In this document: one piece after another, positions 32,777-48,048 of the stretch
How positions within the stretch are numbered: the stretch's first letter is position 1
Layout: the number at the start of each line of letters is the position of its first letter
IMG/VR virus record: IMGVR_UViG_3300046318_000165
Coordinates: 1 to 64,000 of that record
DNA from: a virus
Direction: 5' to 3' (one strand)
Length of the DNA: 64,000 nucleotides
The notes under the pieces: model-generated
The model's database searches: none
What the model saw: the letters and a program-made list of their open reading frames with translations, nothing else
Told to the model about the DNA's origin: nothing
Made by a program: the position numbers and the translations under genes

Positions 32777-33896
32777 TAATGTTTAATAGGATTTGCTACA
32801 GGTGGGTCGGGCACTGCCCCCCTCCGCAATGGAGGGAGACAGTTATCCTATTATGCTTCTTCTGCTGTTCCTAGTATCTCATCAAGATTATCAAATCCTG
32901 TATCAGTAACTTCAAGACCAGCGAGTAGCAACTCAAAAGTTTCCTCAATAAAACTTTCTGCTATTGGAGTTGGCTCTACAATCTTATTATCAAGGGCATA
33001 GGCTAGTGGCAATCCCAAATCATTGTATTCTAGGAAATCAGCAAACTCTTCGTCATTACGATAGTTTAGCCAAAGGTCAGCAAGAATACTTACCTTATTA
33101 GAAAAGGGGGTGGTGGTTGGCTCTGTCATTCATTACTTCTTTCTCGTATTCTGCTGAACTAATAACAATGTCTAAACGGCGATAACTTACATTTGGTAAT
33201 GACCTTGCTAAGTATCGCCCTACTAAGTCAAGGTCTATTGTTACATTGGATAAAAGGTCTGATAACTTCTTGGCAATCTTTTCTTCTTCCGTTATTCTAT
33301 GTCGCATTGGTTACTCCTATTCAGTTGTATGTCTATTCTAGCATTACCCTCCGACAAATACAACCCCTAGAACAAAGTATTTATCCAACGGTAGTCGTCT
33401 ATATCTTCTGGGACCGAATCAACATGCGGTAGTGAATCAAGAAGAGCTTTTACCCTATCAGGAATAGTCTTAGCAATGTTACGGAATGAGTCCAGGGTTA
33501 TAAAGAAATCATCTCCCCATTCCTTTTCAGGAAAGTCTGGTGCAAGCATCCTAGTCTCTGCTAGGGTTAGAGTAAAAGATTCAAGATAGGACCTTGTTGA
33601 TACCCATTCTCCGTCTACCCTATACACTGAAGGCTGGATAGTAAAGACATCTGCCCATTCATTCTCACCAGTCTCTTCATTAGTGCCTAGGTCCCTATAG
33701 AAAACGTTGAGGTCATACTCTTTTTCAATCTGATCGGTTTTAGTTGTCATACCACTTCTCTCCTTCGTGTTCTTCACATTCACAACAGTTTACGCAATAC
33801 CCCTCATCATAGGGGCAAGCAAATGTATCCATAATCCATTCGCCCTCATGGGTATACTCTTTACCACAATCAAGACAAATAATATTATTTAGTATG

Positions 33897-34325
33897 TCAG
33901 CCAACAATCTTTGCGTCCTCTCCATAAAATGCTTTTAGGTCTTCTACAGTGTCAATGGGGATATGGATATAGCCCTCACGCTCTTCACACTCATTACAGT
34001 ATACAGGGTTGTCCCAGTCAAAGTCAAGAGTTTCTAGGCAATCACATTGACGCTCTGCCCAAGTAGGGACTTCAATGTCTTCTTCCCAAGGAACATTGGT
34101 AATATAGTAATGAATACGATTGACATAGTGATAACCAGAAACAATGTAACTTCCCTCATCACCGTCTACTTCAGTCCAAATGTTATGCTCATCCTGTAGT
34201 TTGACATACTCCTTTTCGTCACCGTATGTTTCGTAGGGTAGTTCAAGACCATTACTTTGATTCCTAAGATAATTAGGCATAGGCTGAAACTTCTCAACCC
34301 AAGCGTCATAAGTATAAATAGTCAT
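33897..34325 (-). CDS. Hypothetical acidic protein
   Basis: 142-aa ORF; NIWTEVDGD..GYHYVNRIHY. Confidence 0.6.
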   Translation of the reverse strand: MTIYTYDAWVEKFQPMPNYLRNQSNGLELPYETYGDEKEYVKLQDEHNIWTEVDGDEGSYIVSGYHYVNRIHYYITNVPWEEDIEVPTWAERQCDCLETLDFDWDNPVYCNECEEREGYIHIPIDTVEDLKAFYGEDAKIVG

Positions 34326-34637
34326 TAGTTATTTTCCAATCCTGCTACACCATAGGGGTCAATGTGTTCTTGTAACTTATTATAAATAGCGTTGATAAAG
34401 ATGTCATTATCTCTATAAGTTATTTCGGCAAGGTAGCCATTCAAAACTTCTAACTCAATTTCTGTTAGTTCAATAGTATAAGTATTCATTATCCCTCGCT
34501 AACTTCAACATAACAATCACTAATGATACTATCGGCAATATCTTCTACATCATAGTCCTCACCAAAATCGGCATAGAACTCAATGTAGTGACCAGTTGGT
34601 GAATGAACAATAGTTATCTTCTTTTCCATCATTACTC

Positions 34638-35156
34638 CTAAAAGTGGAAATCAACAGGGACAAGATACCAGTCTACACCCTCAGTGGGTAGTTTGTCAAG
34701 CATATGCTTAGTATTGGTAGAAGAATGTTCAGCGTCAAAATACTTTGAATTGAAATCCCAGTTACCCTGTAGCATATCAATTGCTTTACTCAGGGGGTAT
34801 AGGTCAAAAGAATAATCAATATTTCCAGTATATATATCTAACTTATCTTTGATAGAATCAAAATCAATACGACTAACATAATTCTTGAACTCATTTAGTC
34901 TAGACTCAATACACGAATCAATTTTCGCAGCAAATATTTCAGGGTCTTTAGCATAAGAGATAATCATATTAGAAGAAGAACTATAAGGGTCTTGCTCTGG
35001 GTTCCAACGACCGCCACCGATAACAAACCAATCATACCAAGATGAACCTGGGTTTAGTTCGTTATTTAGAAAACTCTCAACATACTCCATTGCTTCCTGC
35101 TCTGGGTCGTCTAGTCCGTCTTCTACCTTTATAGCAATCCATTGTAAAGTGTGCAT
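34638..35156 (-). CDS. Hypothetical protein (start corrected to MHTLQ)
   Basis: WYDWFVIGGGRW..LVPVDFHF; RBS aaagga before 35156. Confidence 0.7.
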   Translation of the reverse strand: MHTLQWIAIKVEDGLDDPEQEAMEYVESFLNNELNPGSSWYDWFVIGGGRWNPEQDPYSSSSNMIISYAKDPEIFAAKIDSCIESRLNEFKNYVSRIDFDSIKDKLDIYTGNIDYSFDLYPLSKAIDMLQGNWDFNSKYFDAEHSSTNTKHMLDKLPTEGVDWYLVPVDFHF

Positions 35157-36785
35157 TTGATTTCCTTTCGATGTTTCAAGTATACTGCCTACCACCGACA
35201 TTCGTAAAACCTGGGAAAAAGCTGATCTATCGTAATTCTTTATTTGTGACTAATTATATTATGTAAGATAGGTCGGGCTTTCCCTACTCCTCCATTCTTT
35301 TCAAACTTGCTTTCAAAATCCCTAGCACGATTCTTGACGGTATCAAAGGCAAATCCTCATTCTTCAAAAACCCATCAATCATTCCATCAACTAGACTAAT
35401 AGCATTGTCATAGCCCATAGTGTAGGACTTCAATTCATCATTGGTCATTTCTTTGCTCCCAAGCAACCCATACAGAAAAACTTTAGTAATGCGTCAGCAG
35501 GGTTAGTGCTGGTAGTCTCACATTTGTCACACTTGTAAATAGTTTCTTTATTCATTATCTTCCACCTCAAAATCCCATTGTGCGTTAGTTTCAAAATCTT
35601 CAAAGTCCTCAGCAATAAAGTCGTTTATCAACTCCAGAGCCTTTTCTCTACTCTCTGCCTCAACAGGGACTTCATAGTATTTCATTAGTTTTGCTTGAAC
35701 AAGATACTTATTCATCTTCTAGTTCCATTCCTGCTACTTCATACTCTTCCCAGAGATTTACGATTACTTCATTATCAATCTTTTCCAACTCACCCATCAG
35801 TGACCAGAACAGGGTTTGCCAGTTAGTATCATTCATCTTCTTCATCTTCCTCTAGGGCTTCAACCTCAATAGAATCAACTTCAGCAGTGTATGGATAGTT
35901 TTCATAGAGCCAGCCCATTTCCTCTGCTTCGGCTTCGCTGTCTGCCTCAACTTCAAAATAGTATTCAACAGTGGTAGTAATAAAATACTTACTCATTGAC
36001 CATAACCTTTCTTAGTTCATCATCACTTAGTCTATTTATTGTATCAAGACCCTCCGACATTATCAGGTCCAAAAGCCTACGGTATTCTTCAATCATTACT
36101 AACCGTGCTTTCTATAATAAGCATCGCAGGAAGACTTCTTGTGACCAATCTTTTTGGCGGAAGACTTCCAAACCCTTCCACATTCACGACAAGCATAAAT
36201 GTCATACTCTTCACCCTTGTGCTTACGCACCTCAACATTTCGTTCCATTAGTCCTCCTCTGAGTAGTAAAGTTCTAGTGGCACACCAATCATTCCTGCTA
36301 CTGATTGATAAGCAGAAATAAGACCACTAAGATAATCGTGGAAACCATCCAAATCATTTTCATCATAACCTTTCAACTCTTCTTGATAGCCAGTGATTCT
36401 ATCAACCAAGGCGGTAGCAAGAGATGTCATTGATACATAATCAGCATTAGGGTCAAGATTCATTAGTTAGACTCTCCAAAGTATTCTATCCATAGGTCAG
36501 TATCCATAATGCCCTCACCATAAACCTCTTCAAGAGATTCTAGAGCATACTTGACACCATCAGTAAACGCTTCACCAATGGCTTCTTCATAAGTCTTTGA
36601 CATTGCTTTCCTTTCGTTGATGTATTTAGTTTACACCCTACCACCGACATTTACAAGGAAAACCTGGGAAAAAATAGATCTATCATAATAGTTGTAAGTA
36701 GTTTAAATATACTATTTTGCTACAGCTGCCCGACCTGCCCCTGCCCCATATTCCGTTATTGGAATACAGGGCAAGGACTAATGGC

Positions 36786-46539: not shown

Positions 46540-46632
46540 TTATTGATTTGTAGTTTTAGTTTATCCTATGTCACCGACATTTACACGTCTACTTGGTAAC
46601 TTTTTGATAACATTTTCTTTTTAGTTTTTTTG

Positions 46633-46734
46633 TGAGAAGTGTTGGAATCGAACCAACCTTTTCCAGAGCCTCTTTATAAGTAAAGCTTTGTTATAAGCAA
46701 TCTGTCTGTCCCCAAACCATTTGGGCTACTTCCC
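46633..46734 (-). ncRNA. tRNA-like RNA, copy 2 (expanded anticodon loop)
   Basis: Acceptor GGGAAGT/ACTTCTC, T-arm GTTGG-TTCGATT-CCAAC; compensatory changes relative to copy 1. Confidence 0.75.
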
Positions 46735-46835
46735 TTATTTATTTATATCTATATATTATCATTCATTACCGACATTTGTCAAGCTAAACACGCCAATTTA
46801 GGGAAATTTATTTGATCGTTATAAAGCTGTAACAT

Positions 46836-46851
46836 TCGAATGTTTGTTCGA
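46836..46851. promoter_or_regulatory. LexA (SOS) box-like site
   Basis: TCGAAT-GTTT-GTTCGA, 1 mismatch to consensus. Confidence 0.6.
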
Positions 46852-48048
46852 AAATGCCCGACCCCGCTTTCGGGCGTGTCGCCCTCCAGGTGGCTGGGGT
46901 AGTTACTGACTCATTCCAAACATTACAATACCGATCAAAACTAAGATTAGTCCAATAGTCATTAGCTTATCCCTACTTTACCAAGGTAGCAGACGAAGCA
47001 CGAAATACAATACCCAACTTCTTTTGGGCAAAGGTGATAGCAGGATGTCCATACCAAGCAGACACAACTACCTTGTGAGTAACCCCACTGTAGTCGATTC
47101 CTGTTACTAGCCATTCTTTGTTCTTGTTCATTTCAATTTCCTTTTCTTTGATACTTCTATTATAGGCATAGCCTAAGACATTTGTCAAGTCTATTTGGTA
47201 ACGGTTTGATAACGGTTACATGATGGGAAATAGTTCATAGAATAGGTGAGCATGGTCACATTCACCGTCAAGGTTAGGCATACCATCGGAATCTAAGTAG
47301 CACTCAGAGTCACCACAAACTTTTGGGGTATAGGTTTCAAGTTCTTTTACTGTCATGGTAGTCATGCCAGAACAAGCGATACATACACACTTGTAGTCAC
47401 CGTTCTCTAGTTGGAATCCACAACTTACGCAATACTTGAACATTTCTTTTTCCTTTTCCTTGTTGATACAAGTCTATGTGATAGCACCGACAAACGCAAG
47501 TTAGATAGACATATTTTGGTAACAAGTTTATAACATCGTAGGGGGTGTGTGCTCACTATAAAAAGCTTGAAAAATGATCAAAAACCTGTATCATACATCA
47601 GTTTAAAATATTCAGATTTTGTCAAATTTGATTTTTTTCAGATTTTGCTGGATATGATTATAACATTTTGATAACGATTTGATATACTTGGGGGTATTTA
47701 GTAATTAATCTGAGCTAAAATCCAAGTAATAATCATTACAGTCATAAAAACAATTACTTCAAGCATATAAAAATGTCCTAACTACGAAATAGAAAGCCAA
47801 ATCAAACAAAAACAGTGCGGTAGCACCACTTAAAACATATAAAAACTTGATCATGGTACTTTAGTTTCGGGGGTACGAAGGATAAATCCATATTTAATCA
47901 GCCATACATTAACAAGCTTATAAGAAACATTATTCTCTTTGGCAATTTGCTTGGCTGACATATTCTTATTTACAAAAACATCTTGTAGATATTCTTTTTC
48001 ACGATATTGTGCACGGTATCCAACTATTTCTGGCATTTTCTCTCCTAA

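What the first reader, a model, noticed from the sequence alone, without database searches (positions are those of the whole stretch)
33335..47492. A phage gene block driven by 32 PafBC-type (RecA-NDp) DNA-damage promoters
Seen: on the minus strand aaTGTCGG(tgg) is followed after exactly 10 nt by TAnnnT in 26 exact and 6 variant copies (coordinates in features), e.g. TGTCGG-TGGTAGACTG-TATACT (37870-37849) and TGTCGG-TGGTCCCATT-TATAAT (38568-38547). All point leftward, most sit just upstream of an RBS/start or an RNA, and I saw none outside this 14 kb. Established: TGTCGG-N10-TAnnnT (RecA-NDp, tTGTCRgtg-N8-TAnnnT) is the promoter of the actinobacterial LexA-independent DNA-damage regulon. It is activated by the WYL-domain factor PafBC, which reads the -26 element via sigma adaptation and responds to single-stranded nucleic acid. 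Inference: the phage uses a host nucleic-acid damage sensor as activator of its probable early genes, so infection itself could supply the signal; 32 sites could also titrate PafBC from host repair genes. I know of no described phage programme like this.
Basis: partly seen in the sequence, partly recalled or inferred. Interest (0 to 1): 0.95.

Follow-up and report, generated by a model that had tools for sequence, protein, structure and literature searches.

The report
Lake phage promoters copying PafBC boxes
An uncultured freshwater phage of actinobacteria drives a 14-kb block of about 60 small, probably early genes from 32 promoters that have the sequence and spacing of the host promoters switched on by PafBC, the single-stranded-DNA alarm protein, so it probably borrows that host switch, though nothing has been tested at the bench and the host is unknown.

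Summary
TGTCGG-N10-TAnnnT occurs 26 times, all on the minus strand between 33335 and 47492. Chance predicts 0.25, and there are none elsewhere in the 90.7-kb record. Six more promoters keep TGTC at the same spacing, giving 32.

They look like real promoters. A conserved A lies 7 nt after the -10 box, and an RBS and ATG follow 22-30 nt after it. In two cases that A is the A of a leaderless ATG.

The phage is an actinophage: it has WhiB, DUF932, GP88 and a Stanwilliamsviridae-like portal. It comes from freshwater and has about 39% GC. The block is syntenic with the terminal-repeat early genes of Streptomyces phage Peebs.

Across 99 related loci the consensus is aaTGTCRGtgg-N5-G-n-TAtaaT with no -35 box. 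That is the published PafBC (RecA-NDp) motif. Streptomyces relatives have the same promoter-leader cassette with a normal -35 instead.

No WYL domain or sigma factor was found in this phage, and no WYL domain in five near-complete relatives.

Reading by host PafBC is the best explanation (about 0.55) but is untested. The host was not identified, and some streamlined low-GC actinobacterial lineages lack WYL proteins.

No paper in the held library describes such a phage programme. This scan has already flagged the same design in at least 36 other genomes.

The parts
33335..47492 (-). Block of about 60 small leftward genes with 32 co-oriented PafBC-type promoters; probable early or host-takeover module, equivalent to the long terminal repeat of Streptomyces BE-type phages
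47471..47492 (-). Promoter, TGTCGGTGC...TAGACT; drives 75-aa Cys-rich ORF 47216-47443
47159..47180 (-). Variant promoter TGTCTT...TATAAT with perfect TTGACA at 18 nt; drives 52-aa ORF 46973-47131
46753..46774 (-). Promoter TGTCGGTAA...TAATAT with TTGACA at 18 nt; drives tRNA-like RNA at about 46634-46734
46558..46579 (-). Promoter; drives second tRNA-like RNA at about 46440-46539
46124..46145 (-). Promoter; drives 49-aa ORF 45945-46094
45916..45937 (-). Promoter; drives 48-aa ORF 45741-45887
45745..45766 (-). Variant promoter TGTCGC...TAGTCT; drives 45-aa ORF 45580-45717
45556..45577 (-). Variant promoter TGTCTG...TATCAT; drives small ORF 45415-45507
45235..45256 (-). Promoter; ATG 6 nt after the -10 box (possible short leaderless ORF)
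45111..45132 (-). Promoter; drives 57-aa ORF 44908-45081
44885..44906 (-). Promoter, 22-mer identical to the next one; drives 55-aa ORF 44689-44856
44666..44687 (-). Promoter, duplicate 22-mer; long leader, then 38-aa ORF 44461-44577 or an RNA
44339..44360 (-). Variant promoter TGTCAT...TATACT; drives 95-aa HNH-like ORF 44026-44313
44003..44024 (-). Variant promoter TGTCTG...TATACT; drives 57-aa ORF 43804-43977
43690..43711 (-). Promoter; drives 57-aa ORF 43487-43660
43461..43482 (-). Promoter; drives 52-aa ORF 43278-43436
42798..42819 (-). Promoter with leaderless ATG: the A of the ATG is the conserved +1 A, 7 nt after the -10 box; 56-aa ORF ending at 42621
42484..42505 (-). Promoter; drives 38-aa ORF 42344-42460
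41769..41790 (-). Promoter with leaderless ATG; 43-aa ORF 41631-41762
41608..41629 (-). Promoter; drives 75-aa ORF 41354-41581
41331..41352 (-). Promoter; drives 109-aa ORF 40975-41304 (phrog_31860)
40882..40903 (-). Promoter; drives GP88-family gene 40137-40856
40018..40039 (-). Promoter, in tandem 83 nt upstream of the next one
39935..39956 (-). Variant promoter TGTCTG...TATAAT with perfect TTGACA at 18 nt; drives 50-aa ORF 39733-39885
39646..39667 (-). Promoter; drives 146-aa ORF 39175-39615 (homologues in 52 related loci)
38943..38964 (-). Promoter; drives 65-aa ORF 38719-38916
38547..38568 (-).
37849..37870 (-).
36628..36649 (-). Promoter; drives 46-aa ORF 36463-36603
36038..36059 (-). 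Promoter; drives 55-aa acidic ORF 35829-35996
35179..35200 (-). Promoter; drives 172-aa ORF 34638-35156
33335..33356 (-). Last promoter; drives 69-aa ORF 33098-33307
47851..48249 (-). First leftward operon, without the motif: DUF6171 zinc-ribbon protein (48049-48249) and 61-aa HTH-like protein (47851-48036). It has its own sigma-70-like promoter (48284-48256) and terminator (47831-47810). This is the candidate phage factor in the rival explanation
12707..13000 (+). WhiB-like gene, marker of an actinobacterial host
   Evidence: PMC10202952

Best explanation
The 32 sites are promoters of the phage's early (terminal-repeat-type) gene cassettes. They are read by the host RNA polymerase with its housekeeping sigma factor SigA. 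Most lack a -35 box. In its place they carry, exactly 10 nt upstream of a TAnnnT -10 box, the -26 element TGTCGG(TGG), which in actinobacteria is bound by the HTH of PafB. The proposed mechanism is 'sigma adaptation': host PafBC, or an orthologous WYL activator, loaded with single-stranded DNA, inserts between sigma region 4 and the -26 element and lets SigA holoenzyme initiate at the conserved A 7 nt after the -10 box. This produces short-leader or leaderless mRNAs and two tRNA-like RNAs. Shown here: the motif, its spacing, its restriction to one gene block, the promoter context, the actinophage identity, and that no WYL domain or sigma factor was found in the phage.
For: (1) The architecture matches the published PafBC motif tGTCgg(N10)tA(N3)T, with an invariant GTC read by PafB R46/R50 and no -35 (PMC8635444). 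Here there are 26 TGTCGG and 6 TGTCnn sites, all at N10 or N12, against 0-7 at other spacings. (2) The match goes beyond the searched hexamer. Positions 7-9 are T/G/G in 23, 21 and 23 of 26 sites. Chromosomal sites in three actinobacterial genomes read TGTCGGTG-G in 26 of 37 cases. (3) In 99 related IMG/VR loci, 1053 sites give TGTC-R(A 495/G 466)-G-t-g-g with a spacing peak of 1056 at N12 against 50-267 at other spacings, G at -14, and no -35 consensus. (5) Orthologous cassettes in Streptomyces phages Tomas and Peebs share the -10 box, +1 and leader/RBS but carry TTGnnn at 17 nt. The -26 element therefore sits where those relatives have a -35 box. (6) Actinophage identity: WhiB, DUF932 and GP88, portal 47-49% identical to Stanwilliamsviridae, synteny with the Peebs terminal repeat. 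(7) No WYL, Sigma70_r2 or HTH_11 above cut-off in the phage, and no WYL in five 94-100% complete relatives. (8) TSS support: A in 25 of 26 sites 7 nt after the -10 box, and in two promoters that A is the A of a leaderless ATG. (9) The strict pattern TGTCGGTG-N8-TAnnnT occurs 18 times in this 14 kb, against 11-24 in whole 4-9 Mb actinobacterial genomes whose reversed-pattern controls give 0-2. (10) A low-GC (38-42%), 1.5-Mb actinobacterial order has an adjacent WYL pair and TGTCGC or TGTCGG-N10-TAT(T/A)AT about 30-45 nt before recA. PafBC-type promoters therefore exist in AT-rich actinobacteria too.
Against: No expression or binding data exist. The host is unidentified, so 'the host has pafBC' is untested. 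Two orders of small low-GC Actinomycetota have TTGACA plus a LexA box at recA. In those two orders WYL hits are few: 1 of 8 genomes in one, and 1 tested member of the other. PafBC joins RNA polymerase only when single-stranded DNA is present (PMC11804915), so an extra assumption is needed to explain how an infecting phage switches it on. Ten of 32 promoters have 4 or more of 6 matches to TTGACA at 17 or 18 nt, four of them perfect, so part of the set may be activator-independent. The strongly conserved A-tract just upstream (GTAAA) is not part of the published PafBC motif. Cultured relatives do not share the trait uniformly: Peebs has 6 of 13, Tomas 1, Wakanda 0. The record is only 84% complete, so a factor could be encoded in the missing part.
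Confidence: 0.55

Rival explanations
1. A phage-encoded DNA-binding protein of no recognisable family reads AAATGTCGGTGG. It would be made from an ordinary promoter or injected with the DNA. It could act as an activator, like T4 MotA/AsiA, or as a repressor that shuts the early block off later. On this view the likeness to the PafBC box is convergence or mimicry.
For: A leftward operon just upstream of the block lacks the motif and encodes a 61-aa HTH-like protein and a DUF6171 zinc-ribbon protein, with its own promoter and terminator. The motif lies in the promoter spacer, a usual place for operators. The conserved flank GTAAA goes beyond the PafBC motif. The record is 84% complete.
Against: The site matches the host consensus over 9 nt, including the R degeneracy and the spacing. 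Chance does not explain that for an unrelated protein. The 61-aa HTH protein was found in only 4 of 117 related loci and in none of five near-complete relatives (note that nothing rang, so it is weak). DUF6171 was found in 13 of 117 loci. No WYL, sigma or HTH_11 was found. 22 of 32 promoters lack a -35 box, so a pure repressor model leaves them without an upstream recognition element.
Confidence: 0.2
2. Host SigA holoenzyme reads the promoters without PafBC. It would act alone, or with a different host factor or a variant sigma region 4. TGTCRG would then be a spacer or proximal element that the host's own strong promoters also use.
For: The -10 box is canonical and carries the G two bases upstream that actinobacterial promoters often have (G at -14 in 71% of family sites; the actinobacterial preference is from my own knowledge, not checked here). 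About a third of the sites have a usable -35 box. Some candidate host lineages lack WYL proteins.
Against: No factor other than PafBC is known to read TGTCRG at -26 (PMC8635444). The element is far better conserved than any -35 box. In sampled actinobacterial genomes the strict motif numbers at most a few dozen per genome, as expected of a regulon rather than a general promoter feature.
Confidence: 0.15
3. The conserved box is kept for a DNA-level reason, such as cassette shuffling or recombination, or a replication or packaging site. It only happens to sit in promoters.
For: The promoters lie in a repeated intergenic module that also has GCCCGACC (13 copies), a TTTACGAT box and a TTTTCCCAG box. 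Two promoters are identical 22-mers.
Against: The box is strictly oriented and at a fixed distance from the -10 box and +1. The 7 nt between it and the -10 box, and the upstream flanks, have diverged. The same box and spacing define a known promoter class.
Confidence: 0.04

Closest known systems
PafBC-dependent (RecA-NDp, recA P1-type) promoters of Mycobacterium and other Actinobacteria, read by 'sigma adaptation' (PMC8635444, PMC11804915, PMC6789036)
   Same: The same 22-nt architecture: TGTC(R)G at -28 to -23, exactly 10 nt, then TAnnnT. GTC is invariant, there is usually no -35 box, and the extended consensus TGTCRGTGG is shared.
   Different: The sites are on a lytic-type phage, not in the chromosome. 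There are 32 of them in 14 kb, all in one direction. They drive small genes of unknown function rather than repair genes. The context is AT-rich with a TAtAAT -10 box and a conserved A-tract upstream, and a third also have a -35 box. PafBC dependence is untested.
T4 middle promoters (MotA box at -30 plus the -10 box; sigma appropriation by AsiA/MotA)
   Same: A phage promoter class in which the -35 box is replaced by an element nearer the -10 box and read by an adaptor between sigma region 4 and the DNA.
   Different: In T4 the adaptor proteins are phage-encoded and remodel sigma. Here no phage adaptor was found, and the box is that of a host activator.
Early or host-takeover modules in long terminal repeats (T5 pre-early genes, SPO1 host-takeover module, Streptomyces BE-type phages such as Peebs and Tomas)
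   Same: A dense array of small genes, each or nearly each with its own strong promoter, all in one direction. The block is syntenic with the Peebs terminal repeat (DUF932, GP88) and shares the -10/+1/leader cassette.
   Different: Those modules use ordinary -35/-10 host promoters (for Tomas and Peebs). Here the -35 box is mostly replaced by the -26 element. The physical terminal repeat could not be checked on this contig.
Phage genes wired to the host DNA-damage response through LexA or RecA (lambda-type induction, coliphage 186 Tum, CTX phage)
   Same: The phage listens to a host DNA-damage sensor.
   Different: Those cases are derepression switches of temperate phages acting at one or a few promoters. 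This would be positive control of a whole early programme through the LexA-independent pathway.
WYL regulators of anti-phage systems (BrxR, CapW; PMC9122601, PMC9122588, PMC11662680)
   Same: WYL proteins that sense single-stranded DNA link phage infection to transcription.
   Different: Those serve host defence and are mostly repressors of their own islands. Here the phage would be the beneficiary.

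Membership tests
PafBC-dependent (RecA-NDp) promoter class | -26 element tGTCgg with invariant GTC at -28 to -23 | tested here: met
   TGTC in 32 of 32 promoters and TGTCGG in 26. In the family, R is 91% at position 5 and G 90% at position 6.
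PafBC-dependent (RecA-NDp) promoter class | Exactly 10 nt between the hexamer and a TAnnnT -10 box | tested here: met
   Spacing profile: 33 sites at N12 from TGTC against 0-7 at other spacings. TGTCGG gives 26 at N10 and none at N9 or N11. In the family, 1056 against 50-267.
PafBC-dependent (RecA-NDp) promoter class | No -35 consensus | tested here: inconclusive
   22 of 32 have 3 or fewer of 6 matches to TTGACA at 17 or 18 nt, but 10 have 4 or more and four are perfect. There is no -35 consensus across 1053 family sites.
PafBC-dependent (RecA-NDp) promoter class | Host encodes PafB/PafC (paired HTH-WYL-WCX proteins) | tested here: inconclusive
   The host was not identified. One low-GC actinobacterial order has the pair and a PafBC-type recA promoter; two others have few WYL hits.
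PafBC-dependent (RecA-NDp) promoter class | Transcription requires PafBC and single-stranded DNA and is induced by DNA damage | not testable with these tools
   No RNA runs hold the phage. This needs reporter assays or in vitro transcription.
T4-type sigma appropriation (MotA/AsiA) | Phage-encoded activator and co-activator that bind the box and sigma region 4 | not tested
   MotA and AsiA families were not searched. Generic searches found no sigma, WYL or HTH_11.
Ordinary SigA -35/-10 early promoters as in Streptomyces phages Tomas and Peebs | TTGnnn 17 nt (plus or minus 1) upstream of the -10 box | tested here: not met
   TTG at 17 or 18 nt in only 9 of 32 promoters, against T 18/22, T 11/22 and G 16/22 at the three TTG positions in Tomas.
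Stanwilliamsviridae-like actinophage with a terminal-repeat early module | Shared structural and early genes in the same order | tested here: met
   Portal 47-49% identical. The DUF932 gene matches at 53-55% identity and at two places per record. DUF932 and GP88 are collinear with Peebs gp002 and gp008. The RNR-to-portal order is similar.
Stanwilliamsviridae-like actinophage with a terminal-repeat early module | The block is physically a long direct terminal repeat | not testable with these tools
   The contig is linear and 84% complete. Relatives look circularly permuted. Only assembled contigs of runs are available, so read depth cannot be seen.

The most novel reading that the evidence does not exclude
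A large, abundant clade of lake actinophages has replaced the -35 box of its whole early promoter set with the binding site of the host's single-stranded-DNA sensor PafBC. Phage entry or early host-DNA damage would then itself trigger the early programme. The dozens of sites per genome, multiplied by replication, would at the same time draw PafBC away from host repair and defence genes.
Probability: 0.35. Interest if true: 0.9.

Novelty: new variant of a known kind. Interest (0 to 1): 0.72.

Why it matters
If PafBC reads these promoters, this would be, to my knowledge, the first case of a lytic-type phage running a whole gene block through a host WYL-domain sensor of single-stranded DNA. The same kind of protein controls DNA repair and many anti-phage islands. 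It would show 'sigma adaptation' being exploited by viruses. It would give a reason why PafBC affects phage sensitivity in mycobacteria, an effect mentioned in PMC12848934. It would also provide dozens of natural promoter variants for working out what PafBC recognises. The question can be tested with existing M. smegmatis, C. glutamicum or Streptomyces tools. Streptomyces phage Peebs, which has six such sites, is a cultured entry point.

Tried and rejected
- Megablast of 8 kb of the block against 50,697 phage records found no match.
- Host identification failed by every route tried:
  - PstS relatives are only 28-40% identical over most of their length and are spread over Actinomycetota, cyanobacteria and Bdellovibrionales.
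  - A WhiB search of 401 genomes used too strict a threshold and found nothing, so it is uninformative.
  - The protein atlas returned only viral WhiB clusters.
  - A rhodopsin search meant to flag acI genomes rang nowhere, including in the controls.
  - A low-GC version of the motif in 401 genomes gave 38 scattered hits that did not point to a host.
- Streptomyces phages Tomas and Wakanda show no enrichment of TGTC at N12. The motif is therefore not a trait of the whole virus family.
- The 61-aa HTH protein as a universal reader: it occurs in 4 of 117 loci, and was not found in five near-complete relatives. Nothing rang in that search, so the result is weak.
- Rfam found nothing in the block except a sub-threshold tRNA-Sec-like hit.
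- I first read the upstream 'ttGtaaa' as a -35 box. Counting showed TTG at 17 or 18 nt in only 9 of 32 promoters, so I dropped that reading.
- Low GC (39%) does not argue against an actinobacterial host. Peebs and Tomas infect Streptomyces, and the phage carries WhiB. The eight tRNAs include four that read A-ending codons, and third-position GC is 21%. This hints weakly that the host has a higher GC than the phage.

Full report
**Observation**

The pattern TGTCGG-N10-TAnnnT occurs 26 times in the window. All 26 are on the minus strand, between 33335 and 47492. Shuffled sequence gives 0.25 on average. The whole 90,751-bp virus record that contains the window has no further copy, and the reversed control pattern has none.

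Relaxing the first element to TGTC gives 33 minus-strand sites in 32000-49300 at a spacing of N12. Every other spacing from 4 to 21 gives 0-7. Six of the extra sites are real promoter variants: 47180, 45766, 45577, 44360, 44024 and 39956. One, at 34125, lies inside an ORF and is probably chance.

**Are they promoters?**

Aligning the 26 exact sites gives (c/t)(t/c)GTAAA-TGTCGGTGGt-N6-TAnAaT-A-N4-TA-nCAA.
- The A that lies 7 nt after the -10 box is present in 25 of 26 sites and is preceded by T in 20.
- In 25 of 32 promoters an ATG-initiated ORF of 30 aa or more begins within 45 nt of the -10 box, usually 22-30 nt, behind an AAAGGA-type RBS.
- At 42819 and 41790 the ATG starts 6 nt after the -10 box, so the conserved A is the A of the start codon. 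These would be leaderless mRNAs, which places the start site and suits an actinobacterial host.
- The sequence between the box and the -10 box, and the sequence further upstream, has diverged. The sites are therefore not simply copies of one repeat. The exception is 44906 and 44687, whose 22-mers are identical.
- Two promoters (46774, 46579) are followed by cloverleaf-like RNAs with an enlarged anticodon arm rather than by ORFs.

**What the element is**

The window has about 39% GC. The contig encodes the following:
- a WhiB-like protein at 12707-13000. One paper describes WhiB as exclusive to Actinobacteriota and as a marker of their phages (PMC10202952);
- DUF932 and GP88 (mycobacteriophage L5 gp88 family) proteins inside the block;
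- a portal 47-49% identical to those of Streptomyces phages of the Stanwilliamsviridae.

The DUF932 gene matches, at 53-55% identity, gene 2 or 3 of phages such as Peebs, at two places per record, that is, in the long terminal repeat. DUF932 and GP88 are collinear with Peebs gp002 and gp008, on the same strand.

Near-identical DNA is held by freshwater metagenomes from several studies. The block is therefore the counterpart of the terminal-repeat early module of a cultured actinophage family, in an uncultured lake phage. That it is expressed early is an inference from this synteny and from its content of tiny genes.

**Comparison with the PafBC motif**

The published in vivo PafBC motif is tGTCgg(N10)tA(N3)T. 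The 5' part lies at -28 to -23 (the '-26 element'). The GTC is almost invariant and is read by PafB R46/R50. There is no -35 consensus (PMC8635444).

The phage sites match this, and the match goes beyond the hexamer that was searched for.
- Positions 7-9 are T, G and G in 23, 21 and 23 of 26 sites.
- In three actinobacterial genomes, TGTCGGTG-N8-TAnnnT occurs 11-14 times, with reversed-pattern controls of 0-1. The ninth base is G in 26 of 37 sites.
- In a sample of 301 actinobacterial species, 152 have the strict pattern. Genomes of 5-9 Mb reach 14-24 copies, with controls of 0-2.
- This phage has 18 strict copies in 14 kb.

**Relatives**

- Most are relatives of this phage: DUF932, GP88 and the 146-aa protein recur in 51-56 of them.
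- 67 carry three or more TGTCGG sites on one strand, and nearly all have 30-45% GC.
- In 99 loci, 1053 sites give TGTC, then A 495/G 466, then G 90%, then t, g, g; G two bases before the -10 box (71%); TAtaaT; an A-rich tract just upstream; and no -35 consensus. The spacing peak is 1056 at N12, against 50-267 at other spacings.
- Single phages mix TGTCAG and TGTCGG in all proportions. This argues for a reader that accepts either purine rather than for copies of one repeat.

**A swap of upstream elements**

In the terminal-repeat blocks of Streptomyces phages Tomas and Peebs, the early promoters are TTGnnn-N17-TAGACT. They are followed by the same kind of start region and leader as here (for example tagaaCAtcgaaaggg). 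Tomas has one TGTC at N12 and Wakanda none. Peebs has six of 13, against 0-2 at other spacings.

In the present phage only 9 of 32 promoters have TTG at 17 or 18 nt, and 10 have 4 or more of 6 matches to TTGACA. The four with a perfect TTGACA (47180, 46774, 39956, 37870) still keep TGTC at the fixed distance from the -10 box, and two of them have lost the GG.

The lake clade thus kept the -10/+1/leader cassette and put the -26 element where its Streptomyces relatives have a -35 box. That is what an activator-dependent promoter class would look like.

**Who reads the box?**

No WYL, Sigma70_r2 or HTH_11 domain above cut-off was found in the record. No WYL domain was found in five relatives that are 94-100% complete.

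The only leftward genes upstream of the block that lack the motif are a DUF6171 zinc-ribbon protein and a 61-aa HTH-like protein, with their own promoter and terminator. The HTH protein recurs in only 4 of 117 related loci and was not found in the five near-complete relatives. It is not a general partner of the motif.

The simplest reader is therefore the host's PafBC or an orthologous WYL activator. I put this at about 0.55.

**What weakens it**

- The host was not identified.
- Among small low-GC Actinomycetota genomes, one order has an adjacent pair of WYL proteins and TGTCGC or TGTCGG-N10-TAT(T/A)AT 30-45 nt before recA.
- Two other orders have TTGACA plus a LexA box at recA. In one, 1 of 8 genomes has a WYL hit. 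In the other, the one member tested has WYL hits, but its recA has the LexA-type promoter. If the host belongs to a lineage without PafBC, the reading falls.
- The phage's tRNAs for A-ending codons and its third-position GC of 21% hint that the host has a higher GC. This is weak evidence.
- PafBC joins RNA polymerase only with single-stranded DNA bound (PMC11804915).
- The A-tract GTAAA is not part of the published motif.
- There are no RNA data.

**Literature and earlier notes**

Searches for PafBC with phage, PafBC with mycobacteriophage, and RecA-NDp found no description of phage promoters of this class in the held library. One paper cites a 2025 study linking pafBC to mycobacteriophage resistance (PMC12848934).

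This scan has already flagged the same design in at least 36 other genomes, and several follow-ups reached the same reading. These are not independent evidence. I re-derived the points above on this window. New here are the comparison with the Streptomyces cassettes, the count of -35 boxes, the leaderless starts and the negative host lineages.

**Unpublished genomes**

The tallies include genomes G021, G085, G091, G151, G177, G229 and G242. A GC value for G339 was computed. No individual claim rests on any of them.

**Verdict**

This is a new variant of a known kind: PafBC-type promoters used in bulk by a phage. It is interesting and testable, but unproven.

Noticed in passing
window 32805-46863 (13 sites): GCCCGACC occurs 13 times (0.2 expected), only in the block, mostly 45-115 nt upstream of a promoter. 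On the minus strand it ends a GC-rich hairpin or pseudoknot-like fold after the preceding gene. A TTTACGAT(A) box and a TTTTCCCAG box follow before the promoter, so each spacer is a conserved multi-part module. Peebs spacers carry a similar GTCGGGCCCGGACA.
   Followed up: partly
window 46225-46240 and 46836-46851: Two near-consensus actinobacterial LexA boxes (TCGAAC-N4-GTTCGA, one mismatch each; 0.05 expected), each ending 4 nt before a GCCCGACC.
   Followed up: partly
window 45344-45364; also 32138 and 32331: Two perfect DnaA boxes (TTATCCACA) 3 nt apart in the same spacer slot as the LexA-like boxes, and two more at the left edge of the block. There are 5 in the window against 0.78 expected.
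   Followed up: partly
window about 46634-46734 and 46440-46539, minus strand: Two paralogous RNAs of about 100 nt, each behind its own promoter. They fold as a tRNA-like cloverleaf (7-bp acceptor stem, GGTTCGATTCC T-arm) with an anticodon region of about 37 nt. ARAGORN does not call them, and Rfam gives only a sub-threshold tRNA-Sec hit.
   Followed up: partly
window 47851-48249, minus strand: A separate small operon (DUF6171 zinc-ribbon protein and a 61-aa HTH-like protein) with an ordinary promoter and a terminator hairpin at 47831-47810. It is the only leftward unit next to the block without the motif.
   Followed up: partly
window about 48880-48915: A (TAGA)n microsatellite and a very AT-rich stretch lie just downstream of a TTGACA-type promoter at 48946, at the divergence point between the leftward block and the rightward structural genes.
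   Followed up: no
window 20854-21894; 13946-18202: A PstS-like phosphate-binding gene (an auxiliary metabolic gene) and a cluster of five leftward ORFs, two of which match glycosyltransferase families. Streptomyces relatives carry a similar glycosyltransferase/heptose cluster.
   Followed up: no
L281 (Streptomyces phage Tomas 1-12000) and L009 (Peebs 1-10500): 22 and 13 early promoters of the form TTGnnn-N17-TAGACT. They have a conserved T 5 nt before the -10 box and a conserved start and leader (CTA/ACA then tCgAAAGGG). This is a promoter family in cultured phages that I have not seen described.
   Followed up: partly
L217 (G023) and L272 (G362); L211/L212 (G023): A small order of 1.3-1.5-Mb, 36-44% GC Actinomycetota. 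One member (G023) has an adjacent WYL-protein pair, and recA in G023 and G362 sits behind TGTCG(C/G)-N10-TAT(T/A)AT. Other streamlined orders have TTGACA plus a LexA box at recA and mostly no WYL protein.
   Followed up: partly
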